NCBI RefSeq assembly: GCF_053078305.1
Contig: NZ_CP166879.1
Length of the DNA: 64,000 nucleotides
Strand: one strand, 5' to 3'
Positions 25,519 to 34,644 of the stretch are shown here, one piece after another (position 1 is the stretch's first letter; each line of letters opens with the position of its first letter). A program made the position numbers and the translations under genes. The notes below the pieces were generated by a model. The model searched no databases. It was not told the DNA's origin and saw nothing but the letters and a program-made list of their open reading frames with translations.

Positions 25519-26832
<1,314 letters not shown>

Positions 26833-26857
26833 GTCTGACTTTATCTGATTTAAAAAT

Positions 26858-26883
26858 GCCAGCCTTCGGGCTGGCGTTTTTTA
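26858..26883. terminator. Bidirectional intrinsic terminator between eno and the convergent TPM operon
   Basis: GCCAGCC-ttcg-GGCTGGC hairpin flanked by A5 on one side and T6 on the other. Confidence 0.8.
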
Positions 26884-26891
26884 TGGTTGAG

Positions 26892-27785
26892 TTACCAGCG
26901 ACCGGACGCGCCGCCACCGCCAGAAGAACCGCCCCCGCCGCTAAATCCGCCGCCACTTGAGCCTCCACCGGAAGAGGATGAAGAAGAACTTTTTCTTGAA
27001 GCTCTTTCTTTACTGAGTTTTTTGTATTTGGCGCGTAGCTTTTTATTGACGATAAGCCAAAAAATAACCAGTGGTACGCTCGCAAAAGGCGTTAACATAC
27101 CGCAGGCAACGATTAAATTGGTCCATGGTCCTGGCTCGGCAACATAGAGGAATACCATCCCGTAAATGGCGCCAGTGAGAGTGATCCAGGGTAAATTCGA
27201 CGGATCGGTAAAAACAATAAAATATGAAAGTACCGCCAGCAATATAATTACAGCAAGCGATAATGGAATAGGGGGATTGATACTGTAATAATCCCCCTTG
27301 TCTTCCGATAATTCACCATTCAACAGAAGCGCGCCGATATTTTCGCTTGCCAGTGTTAATCCACCCATCAGGTCATCACTTTTGAAGGCAGGGATCAATA
27401 TATCCCTGATAATCTTCGCCGCTTGCAGGTCGGTAACCACCCCTTCCAGCCCGTAGCCAACCTCAATACGAACAGCATGATCCTCCCAGGCAACCAGAAG
27501 TAAAATACCATCGTTTCTCTGCTTATCTCCCAGTTTCCAGCTATCAAAAACGCGTGTTGCATATTGTTCAATGGAATCGTCTCCGGTGGACGGCACTACT
27601 AATACAGCGACCTGCGCCCGTGTTTTATGTGTAATATCCTGCAGTTGCTGTGTCAGTGATTGTTGTTCAGAAGTGCTTAACGTACCAGTAATATCGGTCA
27701 CCTGTTGGCGCAGCTCCGGCACAGCAATTTGCTGGGCAAGCCCAGGAAGGCACCACAAAGTGAATAGAATAAAGATTAAGCGCAT
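26892..27785 (-). CDS. TPM-domain membrane protein, paralog 1 (YgcG-like)
   Basis: ATG at 27785 (ORF track uses TTG at 27797); signal peptide, TPM-like domain, C-terminal TM segment and Gly/Ser-rich tail ending SGRW. Confidence 0.75.
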   Translation of the reverse strand: MRLIFILFTLWCLPGLAQQIAVPELRQQVTDITGTLSTSEQQSLTQQLQDITHKTRAQVAVLVVPSTGDDSIEQYATRVFDSWKLGDKQRNDGILLLVAWEDHAVRIEVGYGLEGVVTDLQAAKIIRDILIPAFKSDDLMGGLTLASENIGALLLNGELSEDKGDYYSINPPIPLSLAVIILLAVLSYFIVFTDPSNLPWITLTGAIYGMVFLYVAEPGPWTNLIVACGMLTPFASVPLVIFWLIVNKKLRAKYKKLSKERASRKSSSSSSSGGGSSGGGFSGGGGSSGGGGASGRW

Positions 27786-27790
27786 TACGA

Positions 27791-28939
27791 TCACCAACGG
27801 CCGGATGAACCGCCGCCTCCTGAAGAACCGCCACCACCGCGGAAAGAATTTCTCGACGAAGAGCGAGAATGAGCATTACGATTCCCCGTTTTCCTGTTGC
27901 TTTTTTCTCCTGACCCCAGCTTAAGATTGCCAGTAAATTTGGCCACAATGATCAGCAGAACGATGCCAGCAATGGTTATTGGGCCGATAAAATGATCAAT
28001 TAACCCAATAATTGTTGAGATGAATGCAATATCTTTATTACTGGCGAACACCAGGCACCATCCCACAATAATTATCAGCATCACGACAAACAATGAATTT
28101 CGTCCTGATTCACGAACCTGCGGAGTCTTCTTTTGTTTTTTCACTTTAGCGTTTTTATTTTTTGGGGCCAGCATCATAGGAAATACGCGGCACAAATTAA
28201 AAACTACCGCGAGACGCTGCTTGCAGGTTGTTGCTAACAATAAACTAAAACAAACGACCGATACCCGCCGAATGATGACATCGTCCTGAAAGGAGAAAAA
28301 CCAGACCATAGGGGTAATCATCGATATCATCCATATGCCACGCCGTGGGCGGCTGGCAAATCGCCAGAGGACAACGATGGCAACGATCATCAGCAGTGTC
28401 CAGGCAAGACATGGCAGCGAACGTTGCGGATTAGCAAACAGATGATTGGCTAAAGCATCCAAAGGGCTAAGGTTCGCTTTGATATGGGTAAACTGTGCGA
28501 TGCTTTCAATTCCGCCCGTTAATCCAGCAAAGAGATTGTTTTTTTCGAATTCTGGCTGCATATGGTAACGAACAATTTGCGCAGCTTGTTCCGGCGGCAA
28601 CATCTCTTCCAGTCCATGTCCAATCTTCATTGACGCCAGCCCTTCCGGCCATACGACGAGAATTAAGATACCTTCGCCATATCGCTTCTCTCCAACGGGT
28701 TTCCAGTGATATACCCCGTATCTCTGCGAGGCTGCAAGTTTAATGTTTTTGCCCCCTGTGGTCGGCGTAACCAACACGGCCACCTGGAAGTGGTTTTGCT
28801 GCTCGAGAGTCTGTAATTGTTGAGTTAAAGCAGTTTGTTCTTCTGTCGTTAATGTCCCGGTTAAGTCATTCACTGAAGGCAATCGTTCAGCGAATACCTG
28901 AAAACTGCATAGCATCAGAAGTAAGAGAAAAATACGCAT
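27791..28939 (-). CDS. TPM-domain membrane protein, paralog 2, with extended multi-TM region
   Basis: 382 aa; signal peptide, TPM-like domain, about 5 hydrophobic helices, Gly/Ser-rich tail ending SGRW. Confidence 0.72.
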   Translation of the reverse strand: MRIFLLLLMLCSFQVFAERLPSVNDLTGTLTTEEQTALTQQLQTLEQQNHFQVAVLVTPTTGGKNIKLAASQRYGVYHWKPVGEKRYGEGILILVVWPEGLASMKIGHGLEEMLPPEQAAQIVRYHMQPEFEKNNLFAGLTGGIESIAQFTHIKANLSPLDALANHLFANPQRSLPCLAWTLLMIVAIVVLWRFASRPRRGIWMISMITPMVWFFSFQDDVIIRRVSVVCFSLLLATTCKQRLAVVFNLCRVFPMMLAPKNKNAKVKKQKKTPQVRESGRNSLFVVMLIIIVGWCLVFASNKDIAFISTIIGLIDHFIGPITIAGIVLLIIVAKFTGNLKLGSGEKSNRKTGNRNAHSRSSSRNSFRGGGGSSGGGGSSGRW

Positions 28940-28956
28940 ATCAATTCCTTTTGTTA

Positions 28957-29847
28957 CTAGCGCCCGGAAGCGCCACCGCCACCAGATGAACCGCCACCAC
29001 CGCTGAAATTGTCATTGTTGAATGAAGAGGATGACGATGATGAATAGTGGGAGGAAGAATTGCTTCTTGTATGGCGTGATGGCTGGTTGACATCACGCAT
29101 CAAATCCCGAACTTTTTTGCCGAAGGGAGTAACAGCGATGGCGACAGCCAGGAACGGTGTGGCGAAGCAGAGTAATGTTGCGAGTACTCCCCAGCTTCCG
29201 CTGAAGCCTGCTATAGGTAAAACAAAGGCCAGTACAATAGCTGCGAAGCAAATTACTCCCAGCGTTTTGATATATCCTCTGGCAGAAATAAACGTCAGTA
29301 CTATCGCCCAGACTAACAATGCCCACCAACCGCTAAAGGGCAAAGGGTGATCGGTCGGTGTAATCGTTGCTAAATTATTCCCCGTCAGACGACTTTCAAG
29401 ATCGCTGATCCCCTTTTGTAAACCGACAGCAAGGTCGCCTTTTTTAAATGCAGGAATAATATTGTTGCGAATAATTTTCCCGGACTGCGCATCCGTAATA
29501 ATACCTTCCAGTCCGTAACCGATTTCAATACGCACGGTATGATCCTGCCAGGCGACTAACAGTAGAACGCCATTATCGCGGTCTTTATCACCCGGTTTCC
29601 AGCTATCGAATACCCGCGTTGCGTACTGCTCGATGGTTTCATCGCCTGTTGTATCAACCACTAACACGACCAACTGTGCGTGGTTTTTTTGCGTCAGGGC
29701 TTTAATCTGGTTGGTCAGGGTGTTTACTTCGCTGTTTGTTAATGTGCCGGTTAAGTCATTCACATACTTGGGGGATTCAGGTACTGGAATTTGTGTGGCA
29801 AACACAGATGAACAGAAGAAAGCCATAAGGAAGATAAAATTTCGCAT
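28957..29847 (-). CDS. TPM-domain membrane protein, paralog 3 (YgcG-like)
   Basis: ATG at 29847 (MRNFIF...); about 55 percent identical to paralog 1 by eye over the TPM domain; Gly/Ser tail ending SGR. Confidence 0.75.
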   Translation of the reverse strand: MRNFIFLMAFFCSSVFATQIPVPESPKYVNDLTGTLTNSEVNTLTNQIKALTQKNHAQLVVLVVDTTGDETIEQYATRVFDSWKPGDKDRDNGVLLLVAWQDHTVRIEIGYGLEGIITDAQSGKIIRNNIIPAFKKGDLAVGLQKGISDLESRLTGNNLATITPTDHPLPFSGWWALLVWAIVLTFISARGYIKTLGVICFAAIVLAFVLPIAGFSGSWGVLATLLCFATPFLAVAIAVTPFGKKVRDLMRDVNQPSRHTRSNSSSHYSSSSSSSFNNDNFSGGGGSSGGGGASGR

Positions 29848-29860
29848 AGAACTTCCCCGC

Positions 29861-30463
29861 TTAATGAGCATTAGCATTCTGGCTAAAATCTATTGTTGGG
29901 GCTTTACTTACTGCGGTGACATCATCCGGCAAATAATTTTTCTTTGGTGTGTAATCCATGACCTTTGCGGTTAATACAGCGGGGAATTTGCGGATAGTGA
30001 CATTATATTGTTCAATGGCTTTAATATATCTTCCTCGCGCAACGGCAATTCTATTTTCACTTCCTTCGAGCTGTACCATTAAGTTTTGATAGAGCTCTTG
30101 AGCCTTTAACTCAGGGTAACGCTCACTAATTATCGTTAACTGACCGAGAGTGCGAGTCACCTGCGCCTGGGCCTGTTGCCAGGCTTGTAATTTTTGTGCA
30201 TCTCCCGGAGCTTGCTGAAGATCGCTGCTGGCGCGATTAGCCTGGCTACGAGCCAATGTTACGGCTTCCAAAACGTCTTTTTCATGGCTGGAATAACCTT
30301 TAATACTGGCGACAAGATTAGGAATAAGATCGGCGCGACGTTGATATTGATTCAATACCTCAGACCAGGAGGCGTTAACCTGCTCATCATAGGTTTGAAT
30401 ATCGTTATATCCACAGCCTGATAAATTGAAAATAAATATAATTACGATGAATATTCTGAGCAT
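29861..30463 (-). CDS. LemA-family lipoprotein
   Basis: 200 aa; N-terminal signal with lipobox-like LSGC; LemA-like coiled region; first gene of 4-gene minus-strand operon. Confidence 0.7.
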   Translation of the reverse strand: MLRIFIVIIFIFNLSGCGYNDIQTYDEQVNASWSEVLNQYQRRADLIPNLVASIKGYSSHEKDVLEAVTLARSQANRASSDLQQAPGDAQKLQAWQQAQAQVTRTLGQLTIISERYPELKAQELYQNLMVQLEGSENRIAVARGRYIKAIEQYNVTIRKFPAVLTAKVMDYTPKKNYLPDDVTAVSKAPTIDFSQNANAH

Positions 30464-30635
30464 GTTTAAATCCCTTTTAATTAATTCCTTAAAACATAAT
30501 ACTCTGCTTCATTTTATTCTTTATGATCTAATCCACTTTTTGCCATAAACCTGCCTGTAACAGAATGTTAATAAGACATGATTGTTGTGGCAGGATCTGC
30601 AATAATTAACAATTATCCACTTCACAGAGAATGCT

Positions 30636-31307
30636 ATGCAGTACCCGATTAACGAGATGTTCCAGACCCTGCAAGGTGAGGGTTACTTTACCGGCGTCCC
30701 CGCCATTTTTATTCGTTTACAGGGATGCCCGGTTGGCTGTGCCTGGTGCGACACCAAACACACCTGGGAAAAGCTTGAGGATCGGGAAGTCTCCCTTTTC
30801 AGCATTCTGGCGAAGACCAAAGAGAGTGATAAGTGGGGGGCGGCGAGCAGTGAAGACTTGCTGGCTGTCATTGGTCGCCAGGGATATACCGCGCGGCATG
30901 TGGTGATTACGGGTGGTGAGCCTTGCATTCATGATTTGCTGCCACTGACTGACCTGCTCGAAAAGAACGGTTTTAGCTGCCAGATCGAAACCAGTGGTAC
31001 TCATGAGGTACGCTGCACACCGAATACCTGGGTTACCGTATCGCCAAAGCTGAACATGCGCGGCGGCTATGAAGTGTTGTCACAGGCACTGGAGCGAGCC
31101 AACGAAATCAAGCATCCAGTGGGGCGCGTACGTGATATTGAAGCACTGGATGAACTTTTGGCGACGCTGACCGATGATAAACCGCGAGTCATTGCTCTGC
31201 AGCCGATTAGCCAAAAGGATGATGCCACACGTTTGTGCATTGAAACCTGCATTGCGCGTAATTGGCGTTTGTCGATGCAAACCCATAAATATTTAAATAT
31301 TGCCTGA
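30636..31307 (+). CDS. queE: 7-carboxy-7-deazaguanine synthase (radical SAM)
   Basis: 223 aa with CxxxCxxC-type motif (CPVGCAWC). Confidence 0.88.
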   Translation: MQYPINEMFQTLQGEGYFTGVPAIFIRLQGCPVGCAWCDTKHTWEKLEDREVSLFSILAKTKESDKWGAASSEDLLAVIGRQGYTARHVVITGGEPCIHDLLPLTDLLEKNGFSCQIETSGTHEVRCTPNTWVTVSPKLNMRGGYEVLSQALERANEIKHPVGRVRDIEALDELLATLTDDKPRVIALQPISQKDDATRLCIETCIARNWRLSMQTHKYLNIA

Positions 31308-31499
31308 TTAAACATTTATAAGCGTTATAAATGGGTGGAACCTGTAAAGACTTCTACTCATTTATATTCTTTGTCGTCTCTGAAAAACCTCCATTTTGCC
31401 CATCCTGAACTAATCATTATCATTCTCTACAAATTCTGTGGCGTTAATTTTTCACTGGAGTGAAAATTATTGCGGTAAAGTTTGGTAGATTTTAGTTTG

Positions 31500-31645
31500 T
31501 ATAGAGTTATTTTAAATATTTACCTTTTTAATCAATGGGTTAAGTGCTCTTTAACATAATGGATGTGTTGTTTGTGTGATACTGTAAAGTTGGTAGATTG
31601 TGACTGGCTTAAAAAATCATTAATTAATAATAGGTTATGTTTAGA
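31500..31645 (+). promoter_or_regulatory. CRISPR leader for array 2
   Basis: AT-rich; contains AGTTGGTAGATTGT motif 44 nt upstream of first repeat, shared with the cas-adjacent leader. Confidence 0.8.
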
Positions 31646-32528
31646 GAGTTCCCCGCGCTAGCGGGGATAAACCGTAATGAGTCAGGGGAATACCGAATAT
31701 TTTATAGAGTTCCCCGCGCTAGCGGGGATAAACCGAAATTTATCGAGATCGGCAGGGGTTACTGACAGAGTTCCCCGCGCTAGCGGGGATAAACCGGCCG
31801 TTAATCCGGACTGCCAGCGAATAACGCTGAGTTCCCCGCGCTAGCGGGGATAAACCGCAACATATTTAAACGATTTAAGCCAGGCATATGAGTTCCCCGC
31901 GCTAGCGGGGATAAACCGGGATTCATCACGCGGTTATCCGGGGGCCGTTAGAGTTCCCCGCGCTAGCGGGGATAAACCGGTGGTTGCGGGGTTATCGGTG
32001 GTAGTCACAATGAGTTCCCCGCGCTAGCGGGGATAAACCGCTCCAGCTCGATATCACACGACGCTATATCAGGAGTTCCCCGCGCTAGCGGGGATAAACC
32101 GGAAACAGCGCCCGCCGGTGCTGCGTTACCGTGGAGTTCCCCGCGCTAGCGGGGATAAACCGCCAACAAACTCATTTGCACTGGATTCGTGGATGAGTTC
32201 CCCGCGCTAGCGGGGATAAACCGACCGGCGCAATTGTTTTTCAGCAGCACCCGGCGAGTTCCCCGCGCTAGCGGGGATAAACCGTATTTTCTTTGTTGCG
32301 GTAGGCAATATCGCCAGAGTTCCCCGCGCTAGCGGGGATAAACCGGTATTTTGTCACGACCAGCACGAGGCCGAATAGAGTTCCCCGCGCCAGCGGGGAT
32401 AAACCGCCCCAACTCATGCCCACATGAAAAACGTTGACGAGTTCCCCGCGCCAGCGGGGATAAACCGCCGCAAAAGGTATTATTTTTATCCGTCAGTACG
32501 AGTTCCCCGCGCCAGCGGGGATAAACCA
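31646..32528 (+). CRISPR. CRISPR array, 15 repeats of 29 bp, 14 spacers of 32 bp (type I-E repeat)
   Basis: Exact 61-bp periodicity; 12 repeats GAGTTCCCCGCGCTAGCGGGGATAAACCG then 3 leader-distal repeats with CCAGCG loop; terminal repeat ends ...AACCA. Confidence 0.97.
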
Positions 32529-32996
32529 CCATATAACCCGTTATCTCTTTCTCAAGTTTTTATATTAGCTGTACTTGTAATAAGCAACATATCCACGTAA
32601 CACCTCATGTTCAAAATAGTTCCCCATGCCAGATAAGTTCACAATTATCGATACAAAAAATCAAATTTAATCAAAGTGTTATTTGTATAATCCTTAAACC
32701 GTTAAGAAATTTTAATATATTATTTTTTTAATATTAATTAATGCCTGTTAATTTTTTCTTTAGAATAACAGTGTATTTTTTAAGCTTGTTATTCATTGAT
32801 TAAGTAATAAATCTGGAAATTTGTCTTTGTTTTGAGGCTAATGAGTGGTTTTACATAACCGCCTCTATACGCTGTTGATGAATAGTTCTTATGAATAAAG
32901 ATATCCTGTTCATACTTTAAGTGAAAATTGATAAAGTGCGATTCGTATTGTCTTTTATTCTAAAGACATCGAGTGTAGTTAATATTCCTTGTAAAA

Positions 32997-33119
32997 ACAG
33001 GGATAAACCGAACTAGTTAAAGTTTTTATTATGTTCCCTGCATCAGCGGGGATAAACCGGACTTGTTATCATTTTTTAAGTTGTCGAACTTATGTTCCCC
33101 GCGCCAGCGGGGATAACCA
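32997..33119 (+). CRISPR. Vestigial CRISPR remnant (degenerate repeats)
   Basis: Partial repeat GGATAAACCG at 33001, ATGTTCCCTGCATCAGCGGGGATAAACCG at 33031-33059, ATGTTCCCCGCGCCAGCGGGGATAACC at 33092-33118; another fragment near 32617-32637. Confidence 0.7.
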
Positions 33120-33165
33120 TTCAGGTATGTTCAGGCCGGGCAGTTTCCCGCCCGGTTTTCCTCAC

Positions 33166-34644
33166 TTACGCATTCGACCAGCTCTGGATCGAATCCGCAT
33201 TCCCCAATTCCCCATGCATCACTTCATACGATTTTTTCAGAATCACATCAGTGTGTTTGGTTAAATCTTTGAAAATGCCTTTATTCATCGCGTCGTAGCG
33301 TTTGGCATTGCTCTCAACAGGCATAAAGATATCTTTCACGCGAACCATTTTATCGACAGCCGTTGCGTAATCCGGGTATAGCCCCAGACCTACCGCTGTA
33401 TTAATCGCTGCCCCCAGGCTTGCACAACCGTTAATGGCATTACGTCGTGCCGGAAGGTTGAACACGTCGGCAAAAATCTGCATAAACAGATCGCTGTTCG
33501 AACCGCCGCCAGTAATGATTACATGCTTCGCAAAGTGATTCATTTCATTACACATATTGTCGTAATTGTTCTTCAGCGTCAGCGCCACGCTTTCCAGTAT
33601 CGAACGATATATCCATGCGTAATCCATGCTGGAATCAAAGCCGATCATAATCCCACGTTTGTAGGGTTCCCACGGGTTGGTCAGCCAGTCCAGCACCGTC
33701 ATCAGACCATTACAGCCAGGCGGCACACAAGAAGCTTTTTTGTTGAGCAAATCTTCCGGTGAAAGATCCTGTGCTTTGGCATCCTGAATTAACGACTCGC
33801 CTAACATGTCGCGTAGCCAGCTCACCGTCCACATGCCTTTACGGATACCGTACCCTTCATACAGCAATGTTTCCGGAATAGAAGACATAATCGGCCAGTA
33901 CGCCACCGGATCTTTCGGCAGTGCTTTACCGTTCATCATCAGCGCGATGTAGGTGCCAAGAGAAATCACCGCCGTTTCATCATCCAGTAATCCGGCTCCC
34001 AGAGCTTCTACCGGTTTATCACTGGTGGTACAAACAACCGGCAGCCCTGACGGGAAATGTGTCGCCAGCGCGGCTTGAGGTGTGATCTGTCCAAGAACAG
34101 TGCCTGGCATTTGCACATCAAACAGCATATGACGGGGGATATTAAACTTCTCCATTACCGCAGCATCTTCGCTCCATGCCCAGCTCTTATAATCCACCGG
34201 CCACTGACCAAAATAGTTGGCGATATTGTCTTTAAACTCGCCGGTTAAGCGATGCGTCAGATAACCCGAAAAAGAGGTGACATATGCCACGTCAGGATTA
34301 GTGTGTTCGTAGGGACGCGTTACGCGTGCATCCTGCCAGCTAATCAACGGCGCAGCAGGCGTGCCATCGGCTTTCAATAACGCACGGCAGCAACGGATGG
34401 ATCCCAGACCAATACCGACAATATCTTCTTTATTCCCGGCAAACTGACTCATCAAATCGTGACCGGCAAAACATAATGATGCCCATAAATCGTCGTCAGG
34501 ATGTTCTGCAGTATCGGCATCTGGCGTGTGCATCGGCTGCAATAAACCTTTGCCTTCGCAAACCACGTTACCTTCCAGATCGTATATCACCACTTTTGTG
34601 CTCTGACTTCCGCCATCAATCCCTATGATGTATTTTTTCGACAT
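33166..34644 (-). CDS. ygcE: FGGY-family carbohydrate kinase
   Basis: 492 aa, FGGY sugar kinase N- and C-domains. Confidence 0.8.
   Translation of the reverse strand: MSKKYIIGIDGGSQSTKVVIYDLEGNVVCEGKGLLQPMHTPDADTAEHPDDDLWASLCFAGHDLMSQFAGNKEDIVGIGLGSIRCCRALLKADGTPAAPLISWQDARVTRPYEHTNPDVAYVTSFSGYLTHRLTGEFKDNIANYFGQWPVDYKSWAWSEDAAVMEKFNIPRHMLFDVQMPGTVLGQITPQAALATHFPSGLPVVCTTSDKPVEALGAGLLDDETAVISLGTYIALMMNGKALPKDPVAYWPIMSSIPETLLYEGYGIRKGMWTVSWLRDMLGESLIQDAKAQDLSPEDLLNKKASCVPPGCNGLMTVLDWLTNPWEPYKRGIMIGFDSSMDYAWIYRSILESVALTLKNNYDNMCNEMNHFAKHVIITGGGSNSDLFMQIFADVFNLPARRNAINGCASLGAAINTAVGLGLYPDYATAVDKMVRVKDIFMPVESNAKRYDAMNKGIFKDLTKHTDVILKKSYEVMHGELGNADSIQSWSNA

What the first reader, a model, noticed from the sequence alone, without database searches (positions are those of the whole stretch)
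26892..30463. lemA plus three tandem TPM-domain paralogs form a compact operon of unknown function between eno and queE
Four co-directional minus-strand genes with 5-17 nt spacers or short overlaps: a LemA-like lipoprotein followed by three TPM-domain paralogs, each with signal peptide, TM segment(s) and an unusual Gly/Ser-rich C-terminal tail ending SGRW or SGR. Paralog 2 has an inserted multi-helix membrane region. Neither family has an established function. From memory, K-12 carries a single TPM gene (ygcG) in about 1.3 kb here, whereas this window has about 3.8 kb, so the module looks expanded and strain-variable. It sits directly beside a CRISPR leader.
Basis: partly seen in the sequence, partly recalled or inferred. 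Interest (0 to 1): 0.6.

Follow-up and report, generated by a model that had tools for sequence, protein, structure and literature searches.

The report
Strain-variable LemA plus three-TPM envelope operon
This is a real four-gene operon for cell-envelope proteins of unknown function, an expanded Escherichia version of a gene pair found across many bacteria; about one E. coli genome in seven carries this arrangement, and K-12 keeps only a stump of it.

Summary
Four co-directional minus-strand genes lie between eno and queE: a LemA lipoprotein (Pfam 1.6e-48) and three TPM-domain membrane proteins (6e-41, 3e-21, 4e-38). They share one terminator.

The locus varies among 5,426 complete E. coli genomes. 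lemA is in 1,454, the middle paralog in 1,104, and the full window arrangement in about 780. About 73% have the K-12 form (yqcG-ygcG, 1.2 kb against 3.8 kb here). K-12 yqcG is a vestige of the lemA 5' end.

The module is a variant of a widespread proteobacterial operon: lemA, then a YgcG-type TPM protein with an invariant C-terminal GGGG[AS]SGxW, then a short cytoplasmic TPM protein. Escherichia lacks the third gene and has three YgcG-type paralogs instead. The middle paralog has a degenerate TPM domain and a membrane region found only in Escherichia and Klebsiella.

There is no defence-system signal, and CRISPR adjacency is loose because queE lies between.

My preferred function is a stress-induced periplasmic accessory or assembly module for membrane complexes. 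This is inferred by analogy and not shown. The find is modestly interesting: a new variant of a known, uncharacterised kind.

The parts
29861..30463 (-). lemA: a 200-aa LemA-family lipoprotein. The lipobox is NLSG|C17, with Gly at +2. The helical-bundle domain is periplasmic.
   Evidence: Pfam PF04011 1.6e-48. PDB 2ETD 'lemA protein' 1.6e-32. The lipobox L[ST]GC|GYN is shared by at least 70 of 79 proteobacterial homologs. dN/dS against E. albertii is 0.03.
28957..29847 (-). tpm1: a 296-aa YgcG-type protein with a signal peptide, a TPM domain, three hydrophobic helices and a Ser/Gly tail. In this window the tail ends SGR* because the last codon changed from TGG to TAG (stop at 28957-28959; the ancestral TAA is at 28954-28956). 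The longest ORF extends to 29877.
   Evidence: Pfam PF04536 6.4e-41. PDB 7TBR, 2KW7 and 5ANP at 1e-19 to 1e-21. Hydropathy. Alignment with O157, EC12, PapRG-04-4 and the intermediate haplotype.
27791..28939 (-). tpm2: a 382-aa divergent paralog. It has a signal peptide, a degenerate TPM domain, a lineage-specific membrane region of about five helices with a Lys-rich loop, and a tail ending GGGGSSGRW.
   Evidence: Pfam PF04536 2.6e-21. It differs from the family consensus at 9 of about 32 conserved positions, including the invariant D119>P. Full-length relatives occur only in Escherichia, and Klebsiella spallanzanii has a version without the TPM domain. The membrane region has 12 hits among 1.84 billion representative proteins; those I identified are Escherichia or Klebsiella versions of the same protein and the rest are short fragments, plus one weak repetitive match. 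The AF2 model is unusable, with pLDDT 38.
26892..27785 (-). tpm3: a 297-aa YgcG-type protein with a signal peptide, a TPM domain, three TM helices, a K/R-rich segment and a Gly/Ser tail ending GGGGASGRW. The longest ORF extends to 27797.
   Evidence: Pfam PF04536 3.9e-38. AF2 mean pLDDT 79.8, with the TPM domain above 90. Foldseek against BA41 (5anp) gives TM 0.89 and rmsd 1.4 A.
26858..26875 (-). An intrinsic-terminator hairpin (GCCAGCC-CGAA-GGCTGGC followed by a T run) lies 17 nt after the tpm3 stop. It is shared head-to-head with eno.
   Evidence: It is the only strong terminator-like site on the minus strand in the operon.
30464..30635 (.). The divergent lemA/queE control region (172 nt). 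The queE-proximal ~100 nt are almost identical to K-12. A candidate PhoP direct repeat, TGTTACAGGCAGGTTTA, lies at 30546-30562 on the lemA strand.
   Evidence: Alignment A1. The half-site scan scores 10 of 12. In K-12, PhoP-P binds DNA upstream of queE and a yqcG deletion raises queE expression (PMC4974570). A sigma-S RNA polymerase ChIP peak lies between queE and 'ygcG' (PMC4447067).
26895..26987 (-). Coding segment for the tpm3 Gly/Ser tail. It also marks the right-hand boundary of homology with the K-12 ygcG allele, which extends to 27007.
   Evidence: BLASTN of the K-12-type interval against the window gives 94% identity up to 27007 and then a break.

Best explanation
What is shown, or follows directly from the sequence:
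- This is a single transcription unit, lemA-tpm1-tpm2-tpm3. It is an Escherichia-specific, paralog-expanded form of the widespread lemA-ygcG envelope operon.
- LemA is a lipoprotein whose helical-bundle domain faces the periplasm. By the +2 sorting rule it is probably anchored in the outer membrane.
- Each TPM protein is exported by a signal peptide. Its TPM domain sits in the periplasm, tethered to the inner membrane by three helices (about five in tpm2). A Gly-rich tail with the conserved end GGGG[AS]SGRW lies in the cytoplasm.
- The locus is an old resident of the queE-eno site in the Escherichia and Klebsiella lineages and is being lost piecemeal. K-12 retains only ygcG, plus yqcG, a vestige of the lemA 5' end that keeps the same promoter region.

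What is inferred about mechanism:
- The TPM domains probably act as non-enzymatic accessory or assembly subunits that dock on the periplasmic face of an inner-membrane protein complex. Other TPM proteins do this on photosystem II and on the mycobacterial respiratory supercomplex.
- LemA would be their periplasmic partner.
- The operon is probably switched on with queE under envelope, stationary-phase or low-Mg2+ stress.
For: Anatomy and topology:
- Pfam and PDB assignments.
- Spacers of 5-17 nt and a single terminator.
- A lipobox conserved in at least 70 of 79 LemA homologs.
- N-terminal hydrophobic signal sequences and three post-domain helices.
- The positive-inside pattern across 63 homologs: mean K+R is 1.6 in loop 1, 0 in loop 2 and 2.0 after TM3.

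Conservation:
- Purifying selection against E. albertii: dN/dS 0.03 for lemA, 0.20 for tpm1, 0.27 for tpm2, 0.15 for tpm3.
- In 80 genomes the only conserved neighbours of lemA are a YgcG-type TPM gene (67 loci) and a short TPM gene (43 loci).
- The same queE-lemA-TPM...eno synteny occurs in E. albertii and Klebsiella spallanzanii.
- LemA identity falls with phylogenetic distance.

K-12 relationship: the yqcG start region aligns to the lemA upstream region and signal-peptide codons.

Mode of action:
- Foldseek matches the TPM3 model to BA41, TLP18.3, the PSII assembly factor Psb32, and a subunit of the mycobacterial CIII2CIV2 supercomplex.
- A published genomic-context analysis also argues for a chaperone-like role of TPM domains in assembling membrane complexes (PMC11237479).

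Regulation:
- PhoP-P binds upstream of queE, and a sigma-S ChIP peak lies there in K-12.
- yqcG is named an envelope-stress protein.
- lemA and a TPM gene are co-induced in a Flavobacterium membrane-stress mutant (PMC13236525).
Against: - No experiment bears on this operon in any lemA-positive E. coli. Co-transcription, protein localisation and induction are all inferred.
- The regulatory data come from K-12, where most of the operon is absent.
- No partner membrane complex is indicated by gene neighbourhood.
- TPM1 and TPM3 keep every invariant acidic residue of the family, which fits a ligand- or metal-binding or catalytic site as well as it fits a docking surface.
- The module is dispensable: 73% of E. 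coli lack lemA, O157 carries a nonsense mutation in tpm1, and the window's tpm1 has lost its terminal Trp.
- AF2 pairs the C-terminal strand with the TPM sheet. That conflicts with the inferred topology if the contact is taken as being within one chain.
Confidence: 0.45

Rival explanations
1. The TPM domains are periplasmic metal-dependent phosphatases or nucleotidases. TPM1 and TPM3 would hydrolyse a phosphorylated periplasmic substrate, and LemA would be a cofactor or regulator.
For: The Pfam family is named TPM_phosphatase. The closest solved relative is BA41 (2.5e-19), which the literature describes as having ATPase/ADPase activity (title of reference 90 in PMC11237479). Across 63 homologs D31, E114 and D119 are invariant, D92 and D102 are nearly invariant, and TPM3 retains all five (TPM1 has Asn at position 92).
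Against: As far as I recall, the reported activities of TPM proteins are weak. The same family acts as a structural subunit or assembly factor in solved complexes. TPM2 has lost D119, R78, D92, D102 and R106, yet it remains under constraint, with dN/dS 0.27. The Klebsiella version lacks the domain altogether.
Confidence: 0.2
2. The module is an evolutionary remnant in decay. It was functional in the Escherichia-Klebsiella ancestor but is now redundant in E. coli, contributes no fitness, and survives only by drift in some lineages.
For: It is absent from 73% of complete genomes, and at least five haplotypes exist. O157 has a nonsense mutation in tpm1, and the window's tpm1 lost its terminal Trp. 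E. albertii tpm2 alleles have lost the Trp repeatedly. dN/dS is higher within E. coli: 0.56 for tpm3 against O157 and 0.74 for tpm2 against EC12, though both rest on few substitutions.
Against: All four reading frames are intact in the window, in PapRG-04-4 and in EC12. dN/dS against E. albertii is 0.03-0.27. Each gene keeps a ribosome-binding site and a signal peptide.
Confidence: 0.15
3. The module is an anti-phage or CRISPR-associated accessory, as its variability and its position next to CRISPR arrays might suggest.
For: It is strain-variable. A type I-E array lies 339 nt beyond queE in the window. In Klebsiella spallanzanii a 22-repeat array starts 7 nt after the last gene of the module.
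Against: None of the four proteins hits a PADLOC model. Clustering of the genes flanking lemA in the 80 loci found no family recurring near lemA besides the two TPM genes. In E. coli the array is present with K-12-type and intermediate haplotypes and is not annotated in some four-gene strains. queE separates the operon from the leader.
Confidence: 0.04
4. LemA is a surface-exposed lipoprotein adhesin or antigen, and the TPM proteins serve in its export or display.
For: LemA here is a lipoprotein predicted to leave the inner membrane. Leptospira LemA is reported as a putative lipoprotein that binds laminin, fibrinogen and collagen IV and protects hamsters as a vaccine (PMC7164400).
Against: Nothing indicates surface exposure in Enterobacteriaceae. 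The module is common in free-living soil and water proteobacteria. The LemA fold is a compact helical bundle (2ETD).
Confidence: 0.05

Closest known systems
The canonical proteobacterial lemA - ygcG-type TPM - short TPM operon, seen here in Xanthomonas, Burkholderiales, Rhodocyclales, Methylophilaceae and Neisseriaceae. The Bizionia proteins BA41 and BA42 look like the same two TPM types.
   Same: lemA comes first and encodes a lipoprotein with the SGC|GYN lipobox. It is followed by a protein with a signal peptide, a TPM domain, three TM helices and a Gly-rich tail ending in the invariant GGGG[AS]SGxW; 71 of 72 such proteins end in Trp.
   Different: Escherichia has no third gene for the ~167-aa cytoplasmic TPM protein, which lacks a signal peptide and ends NELPDxPV[IL]L. 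Instead it has three YgcG-type paralogs only 36-43% identical to one another, one of them with a new membrane region. A two-gene form, lemA plus one YgcG-type gene, occurs in Buttiauxella, Erwinia persicina and the Pseudomonas nitroreducens group.
E. coli K-12 yqcG-ygcG
   Same: It occupies the same locus, with the same queE-side control region, the same terminator and the same tail-coding 3' end (94% identical up to window position 27007). YgcG is a fourth paralog class of the same protein type.
   Different: lemA, tpm1 and tpm2 are absent. YgcG is only 42% identical to tpm3. yqcG (46 aa) consists of an upstream ATG, a 1-nt deletion, the lemA signal-peptide codons (IIFIF) and then unrelated sequence.
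Psb32/TLP18.3 (photosystem II assembly and repair factors) and the TPM-fold subunit of the mycobacterial CIII2CIV2 supercomplex
   Same: They share the TPM fold (Foldseek probability 1.00, TM 0.65-0.74 normalised to the target). The domain sits on the extracytoplasmic side and is tethered by a membrane helix.
   Different: Sequence identity is only 15-20%. They have no LemA partner, no three-helix anchor and no Gly-rich W-terminated tail. The partner complex in E. coli is unknown.
MamQ (a magnetosome LemA-family protein) and Thermotoga LemA (PDB 2ETD)
   Same: All carry the LemA domain (NCBIfam MamQ 2.3e-25; 2ETD 1.6e-32).
   Different: The MamQ score of 89 bits is far below the 250-bit cut-off, so this is not a MamQ equivalog. 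The anchor here is a lipid-modified Cys rather than a transmembrane helix, and there is no magnetosome context.

Membership tests
LemA family (PF04011) | Full-length match to the LemA domain model | tested here: met
   Residues 32-193 match model positions 1-149 of 149, at 1.6e-48. 2ETD matches at 1.6e-32.
LemA family (PF04011) | An N-terminal membrane anchor ahead of the domain | tested here: met
   A hydrophobic N-terminus is followed by the lipobox NLSG|C. The same lipobox is in at least 70 of 79 homologs. Lipidation itself cannot be tested here.
MamQ equivalog (NF040966) | Score above the curated cut-off of 250 bits | tested here: not met
   89.3 bits.
TPM domain (PF04536) | Domain match in each of the three proteins | tested here: met
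   6.4e-41, 2.6e-21 and 3.9e-38.
TPM domain (PF04536) | TPM alpha/beta fold | tested here: met
   In the tpm3 AF2 model the domain has pLDDT above 90. Foldseek against 5anp gives rmsd 1.4 A and TM 0.89. For tpm2 the test is inconclusive because the model has pLDDT 38.
TPM domain (PF04536) | Conserved family residues (D31, Q58, G93, L113-E114, D119, P132 and others) | tested here: met
   TPM3 keeps all seven listed residues and TPM1 departs from the wider conserved set only at a few nearly invariant positions (for example Asn for D92). TPM2 differs at 9 of about 32 conserved positions, including D119>P, so the feature is only partly met for TPM2.
YgcG-type membrane TPM protein | Signal peptide + TPM domain + three TM helices + Gly-rich tail ending GGGG[AS]SGxW | tested here: met
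   tpm3 meets it fully. tpm1 meets it except that the terminal W is lost through TGG>TAG. tpm2 has the tail (GGGGSSGRW) but about five helices of unrelated sequence.
Canonical lemA-ygcG-short-TPM operon | lemA immediately upstream of a YgcG-type gene on the same strand | tested here: met
   A 13-nt spacer in the window. Most of the 80 loci share the order, with lemA immediately followed by the TPM gene on the same strand; three Burkholderia/Paraburkholderia loci have the TPM gene upstream, and in three Neisseriaceae-type loci (L050, L053, L060) other sequence lies between.
Canonical lemA-ygcG-short-TPM operon | A third gene for a ~167-aa cytoplasmic TPM protein ending NELPDxPV[IL]L | tested here: not met
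   It is absent from the window operon and from the E. albertii, Klebsiella, Buttiauxella and Erwinia loci, and present in 43 other loci. I did not test whether E. coli encodes one elsewhere. From memory, K-12 has YgcG as its only PF04536 protein.
Known anti-phage defence systems (PADLOC) | A match of any component to a defence-system model | tested here: not met
   No hits at E <= 0.01 for any of the four proteins.
Psb32 equivalog (NF047379) | Score above the curated cut-off of 160 bits | tested here: not met
   35.8 and 31.5 bits.

The most novel reading that the evidence does not exclude
The invariant C-terminal GGGG[AS]SGxW of YgcG-type proteins may be a docking peptide that adds a beta-strand to a TPM domain on the other side of the membrane. 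In canonical operons the target would be the cytoplasmic short TPM protein.

On that reading, LemA (outer-membrane lipoprotein), YgcG (periplasmic TPM domain, three TM helices, cytoplasmic tail) and the short TPM protein would form a trans-envelope relay that reports periplasmic state to the cytoplasm. Escherichia would then have lost the cytoplasmic receiver and multiplied the sensor.

This reading rests on four results:
- 71 of 72 homologs end in Trp.
- The tail is conserved at protein level although its codons differ (75-77% DNA identity among the window paralogs).
- AF2 places residues 292-296 in a strand at pLDDT about 91.
- The positive-inside pattern puts the tail in the cytoplasm.
Probability: 0.15. 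Interest if true: 0.65.

Novelty: new variant of a known kind. Interest (0 to 1): 0.4.

Why it matters
LemA and TPM proteins are among the commonest bacterial envelope proteins with no assigned function, and E. coli K-12 is a poor model for them because it has lost lemA. Three results make the problem more tractable:

- Natural E. coli strains, including O157:H7, carry the complete module in several defined haplotypes. That gives an isogenic-style genetic system in the best-studied bacterium.
- The K-12 small protein YqcG is a lemA vestige that shares the PhoP- and sigma-S-bound control region with queE. This transfers testable regulatory hypotheses to the operon.
- The conserved cytoplasmic tail motif and the two-sided TPM arrangement in canonical operons give specific handles for experiments: tail truncation, terminal Trp mutants and partner pull-downs.

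The practical consequences are modest. The locus is a strain marker and a possible envelope-stress factor in pathogenic lineages.

Tried and rejected
- AF2 of tpm2 from a 16-sequence alignment gave pLDDT 38. I used it only for rough helix positions and ran no fold search on it.
- The PADLOC scan was empty.
- The Rfam scan of 26500-33300 was empty.
- The sigma-70 consensus scan found no more sites than shuffled sequence and none in the lemA-queE spacer, so the promoter is not located. The PhoP repeat is only a 10/12 consensus match.
- Clustering of neighbouring genes in 80 loci revealed no conserved partner beyond the two TPM genes.
- The 3' half of yqcG has no detectable source in the lemA operon.
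- I considered recent gene conversion as the reason for tail conservation and rejected it. The three tails in the window are only 75-77% identical in DNA.
- NCBIfam gave nothing for the 120-aa gene of the intermediate haplotype, for YqcG, for the short TPM protein or for the Klebsiella TPM2-like protein.
- Literature searches for LemA with TPM, for ygcG, for yqcG and for LemA with O157 returned no functional study of this operon. The paper I recalled (from memory) as the source of the yqcG stress-induction data is not held under the PMC id I tried.
- PGAP labels such as 'partial, missing C-terminus' on tpm1 in strains EC12 and 1912D004 turned out to be annotation artefacts, because both ORFs are intact.

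Full report
**The observation**

The window holds four co-directional minus-strand ORFs between eno (25534-26832, +) and queE (30636-31307, +):
- lemA at 29861-30463
- tpm1 at 28957-29877
- tpm2 at 27791-28939
- tpm3 at 26892-27797

Pfam-A assigns LemA (PF04011, 1.6e-48) to the first. It assigns TPM_phosphatase (PF04536) to the other three, at 6.4e-41, 2.6e-21 and 3.9e-38. By sequence, LemA matches the solved Thermotoga LemA 2ETD at 1.6e-32. tpm1 matches the TPM structures 7TBR, 2KW7 and BA41 (5ANP) at about 1e-20.

The probable starts of tpm1 and tpm3 are the ATGs at 29847 and 27785. Each has a purine-rich ribosome-binding site upstream, and the RefSeq annotation of relatives agrees for tpm1; PGAP calls tpm3 from an upstream GTG that overlaps tpm2 by 4 nt. 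The spacers are then 13, 17 and 5 nt. One strong hairpin-plus-T-run terminator (26858-26875) follows tpm3 and is shared with eno. The anatomy is that of one operon. Co-transcription itself is inferred.

**The proteins**

LemA begins MLRIFIVIIFIFNLSG|C, a lipobox with Gly at +2. The motif L[ST]GC|GYN recurs in at least 70 of 79 proteobacterial homologs. By the established +2 sorting rule, where Asp at +2 retains a lipoprotein in the inner membrane, LemA should be a periplasm-facing lipoprotein sent to the outer membrane. This is an inference.

Each TPM protein has an N-terminal hydrophobic signal sequence with a VFA or GLA cleavage-type site. After the TPM domain come hydrophobic helices, and then a Ser/Gly-rich tail.

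An AF2 model of tpm3 built from 63 homologs has mean pLDDT 79.8. The TPM domain scores above 90, followed by three helices at 175-191, 198-215 and 222-261. Foldseek superposes the domain on BA41 at 1.4 A with TM 0.89.

Across the 63 homologs the positive-inside pattern is clear:
- mean K+R of 1.6 in loop 1
- 0 in loop 2
- 2.0 after the third helix
- an acidic stretch before the first helix

This places the TPM domain in the periplasm and the tail in the cytoplasm.

**The three paralogs are old**

tpm1 and tpm3 are 43% identical. tpm2 aligns with either only over the first 150-200 residues, at 36-38%.

tpm2 departs from the family consensus at 9 of about 32 highly conserved TPM positions. These include the invariant Asp119, which is Pro in tpm2. 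Its membrane part is unrelated in sequence to that of the other two. It consists of roughly five helices with a Lys-rich loop, judged from hydropathy and a low-confidence model.

A search of that region against 1.84 billion representative proteins found 12 hits. The best are a full-length Escherichia albertii tpm2 and two 39-40% identical proteins of Klebsiella-like length; most of the rest are short, closely related fragments, and one is a weak repetitive match I did not examine. Klebsiella spallanzanii carries a version with the same signal peptide, membrane region and tail but no TPM domain at all. In this paralog the membrane part and the tail look like the conserved core.

**Selection**

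Against E. albertii orthologs, dN/dS is 0.03 for lemA, 0.20 for tpm1, 0.27 for tpm2 and 0.15 for tpm3. These are, or recently were, functional genes.

Signs of relaxation also exist:
- The window's tpm1 ends SGR* because its last codon changed from TGG to TAG. All compared relatives read CGC TGG TAA.
- O157 has a TTA>TGA nonsense mutation at codon 225 of tpm1.
- Several E. albertii tpm2 alleles have also lost the terminal Trp.

**Variation among E. coli**

Counts among 5,426 complete genomes:

| Feature | Genomes |
|---|---|
| Flanks present | 5,425 |
| lemA | 1,454 (27%) |
| tpm2 | 1,104 (20%) |
| Full-length tpm3 | 782 (14%) |
| 5' third of tpm3 only, joined to a ygcG-like body | a further 332 |

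I recognise five haplotypes:

| Haplotype | Gene order | Example |
|---|---|---|
| A | lemA-tpm1-tpm2-tpm3 | window, O157, PapRG-04-4 |
| B | lemA-tpm1-tpm2-ygcG' | EC12 |
| C | lemA-tpm1-tpm3-ygcG' | SCPM-O-B-8794 |
| D | lemA-tpm1'-unrelated 120-aa gene, in about 346 genomes | 1912D004 |
| E | yqcG-ygcG, the K-12 type, in about 73% | AQ15 |

**K-12 yqcG is a vestige of lemA**

The K-12-type interval shares with the window only two stretches. One is the eno side up to 27007, meaning the tail-coding end of the last gene at 94% identity. The other is the queE side from 30429.

In the alignment of the control regions, the yqcG ATG lies in what is lemA's 5' leader. A 1-nt deletion at the lemA ATG carries that frame into the lemA signal-peptide codons (I-I-F-I-F). 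Homology stops after ATTATATTTATTTT.

lemA with a downstream YgcG-type gene is the widespread state (see below). So the K-12 state is the derived one, and YgcG in K-12 is a partner protein without its LemA.

**Wider distribution**

A scan of one genome per species with LemA returned 80 loci. I called ORFs in them and searched with a TPM profile.
- 67 loci encode a YgcG-type protein next to lemA, typically 280-330 aa. It follows lemA directly in nearly all of them; it lies upstream in three Burkholderia/Paraburkholderia loci and is separated by other sequence in three Neisseriaceae-type loci.
- The last nine residues of that protein are almost invariant, GGGG[AS]SGxW. Of 72 such proteins, 71 end in Trp.
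- 43 loci have a third gene for a ~167-aa TPM protein. It has no signal peptide, a basic N-terminus, and the ending NELPDxPV[IL]L.
- No other neighbour is conserved.

The Escherichia, Klebsiella, Buttiauxella, Erwinia persicina and Pseudomonas nitroreducens loci lack that third gene.

Only Escherichia and Klebsiella spallanzanii have the module between queE and eno. LemA identity falls in step with phylogeny:
- E. albertii 96%
- E. marmotae 91-92%
- Klebsiella species 81-84%
- Tenebrionibacter and Entomohabitans 71%
- Brenneria, Photorhabdus and Biostraticola 58-62%
- Buttiauxella 55%

This pattern fits vertical descent with repeated loss rather than recent import. The operon's G+C content of 0.41-0.49, against about 0.52 in eno and pyrG, is unremarkable for membrane-protein genes.

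**The tail**

Within the window the three tail-coding segments are only 75-77% identical in DNA. The conserved protein sequence therefore reflects selection and not gene conversion.

AF2 leaves the Gly-rich linker disordered. It nevertheless puts residues 292-296 (the final ASGRW) in a beta-strand at pLDDT about 91. The only other strands in the model belong to the TPM domain, so the tail must be paired with that sheet.

Such a contact within one chain conflicts with the inferred topology. It could instead reflect docking on a TPM domain located in the cytoplasm, which canonical operons provide as the third gene. I record it as unexplained, and it is the basis of the 'novel case'.

**Regulation**

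All regulatory evidence comes from K-12. I extend it to this operon only because the control regions are homologous: the queE-proximal ~100 nt of the spacer are nearly identical.
- Phosphorylated PhoP binds the 300 bp upstream of queE and the next 300 bp. Deleting yqcG in an mgrB mutant raises queE transcription (PMC4974570).
- A sigma-S RNA polymerase ChIP peak lies between queE and 'ygcG', described there as a small envelope-stress protein (PMC4447067).
- RefSeq and EcoCyc name YqcG a cell-envelope stress response protein.
- A 10/12 match to the PhoP direct repeat lies at 30546-30562.
- The sigma-70 consensus scan found nothing above chance.

**How it may work**

Foldseek links the TPM domain to three kinds of protein:
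- TLP18.3, a thylakoid-lumen protein whose solved-structure entry gives no role
- the photosystem II assembly factor Psb32
- a subunit of the mycobacterial CIII2CIV2 respiratory supercomplex

As far as I know, in each of these a TPM domain on the extracytoplasmic face is tethered by a helix and bound to a large membrane complex. A published genomic-context study reached the same chaperone-like view for the TPM protein in the Bacillus pspA operon (PMC11237479).

I therefore favour an accessory or assembly role on the periplasmic face of an inner-membrane complex, with LemA as the periplasmic partner, at about 45% confidence.

The rivals are:
- An enzymatic (phosphatase or nucleotidase) role. 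It is supported by the family's conserved acidic residues, nearly all of which TPM1 and TPM3 keep (TPM1 has Asn at position 92), and by the activity reported for BA41. It is weakened by the degenerate TPM2 and by the domain-less Klebsiella protein.
- A decaying remnant.
- A defence or CRISPR accessory.
- An adhesin, by analogy with Leptospira LemA (PMC7164400).

Defence is the weakest. There are no PADLOC hits. The 80 loci show no conserved defence or CRISPR neighbours. The CRISPR array occurs independently of haplotype. queE sits between the operon and the leader.

**Verdict**

The module is a new variant of a known but uncharacterised kind: a paralog-expanded lemA-ygcG operon without the cytoplasmic TPM partner. 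RefSeq already annotates it by family name in more than a thousand genomes.

Its main value is as a tractable entry point to LemA and TPM function. The recognition of yqcG as a lemA remnant and the conserved tail motif add to that value. Interest is 0.4.

Noticed in passing
window 28954-28959: tpm1 ends ...SGR* because its last sense codon is TAG where every compared relative has TGG (Trp) followed by TAA. The terminal Trp is otherwise present in 71 of 72 YgcG-type proteins. Several E. albertii tpm2 alleles have lost the same Trp independently.
   Followed up: partly
L003:3579-3719 (K-12-type yqcG), aligned to window 30429-30500: The 46-aa 'envelope stress' protein YqcG starts in what is the lemA leader. 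It reads through a 1-nt deletion into the lemA signal-peptide codons and then into unrelated sequence. It is a vestige of lemA, and the source of its 3' half was not found.
   Followed up: yes
L087:6865-8174 (Klebsiella spallanzanii): A 22-repeat type I-E CRISPR array begins 7 nt after the stop codon of the TPM2-like gene and fills the space up to eno. In E. coli the array lies on the other side of the module, beyond queE. CRISPR arrays thus flank this module on different sides in the two genera, for no evident reason.
   Followed up: partly
window 31308-33116: An AT-rich leader (about 31308-31645) is followed by a 15-repeat type I-E array (31646-32526) transcribed away from queE. Three degenerate repeats at 32980-33116 form a second mini-array. 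No Rfam family reached its threshold here.
   Followed up: partly
L001:4986-5660 (O157 strain Al Ain): tpm1 carries a TTA>TGA nonsense mutation at codon 225 in this O157 strain. The third membrane helix and the tail are lost, although the downstream sequence remains intact.
   Followed up: yes
L005:3740-4633 and L002:3052-3992: RefSeq labels tpm1 'incomplete; missing C-terminus' in strains EC12 and 1912D004, yet both reading frames are intact through ...GASGRW*. The labels appear to be annotation artefacts, possibly arising from comparison with the truncated O157 protein.
   Followed up: yes
L002:2689-3051: In the intermediate haplotype (about 346 genomes), tpm2 and tpm3 are replaced by a 120-aa hydrophobic protein that matches no NCBIfam family.
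   Followed up: partly
window 26895-26909 (tpm3 residues 292-296): AF2 models the last five residues as a beta-strand at pLDDT about 91, although the preceding Gly-rich linker is disordered. Pairing with the periplasmic TPM sheet contradicts the inferred cytoplasmic position of the tail.
   Followed up: partly
for example L044:8880-9371 and L058:8598-9110: The third gene of canonical operons encodes a short TPM protein with no signal peptide. It has a conserved basic N-terminus (R-x-x-R-H-L...W) and a conserved C-terminal NELPDxPV[IL]L. It matches no NCBIfam family.
   Followed up: no
window 26887-27147 (+): A Pro-rich 86-aa ORF (PPPPEEPPPP...) on the opposite strand is simply the reverse-complement shadow of the tpm3 Gly/Ser tail. 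It is not a gene.
   Followed up: yes
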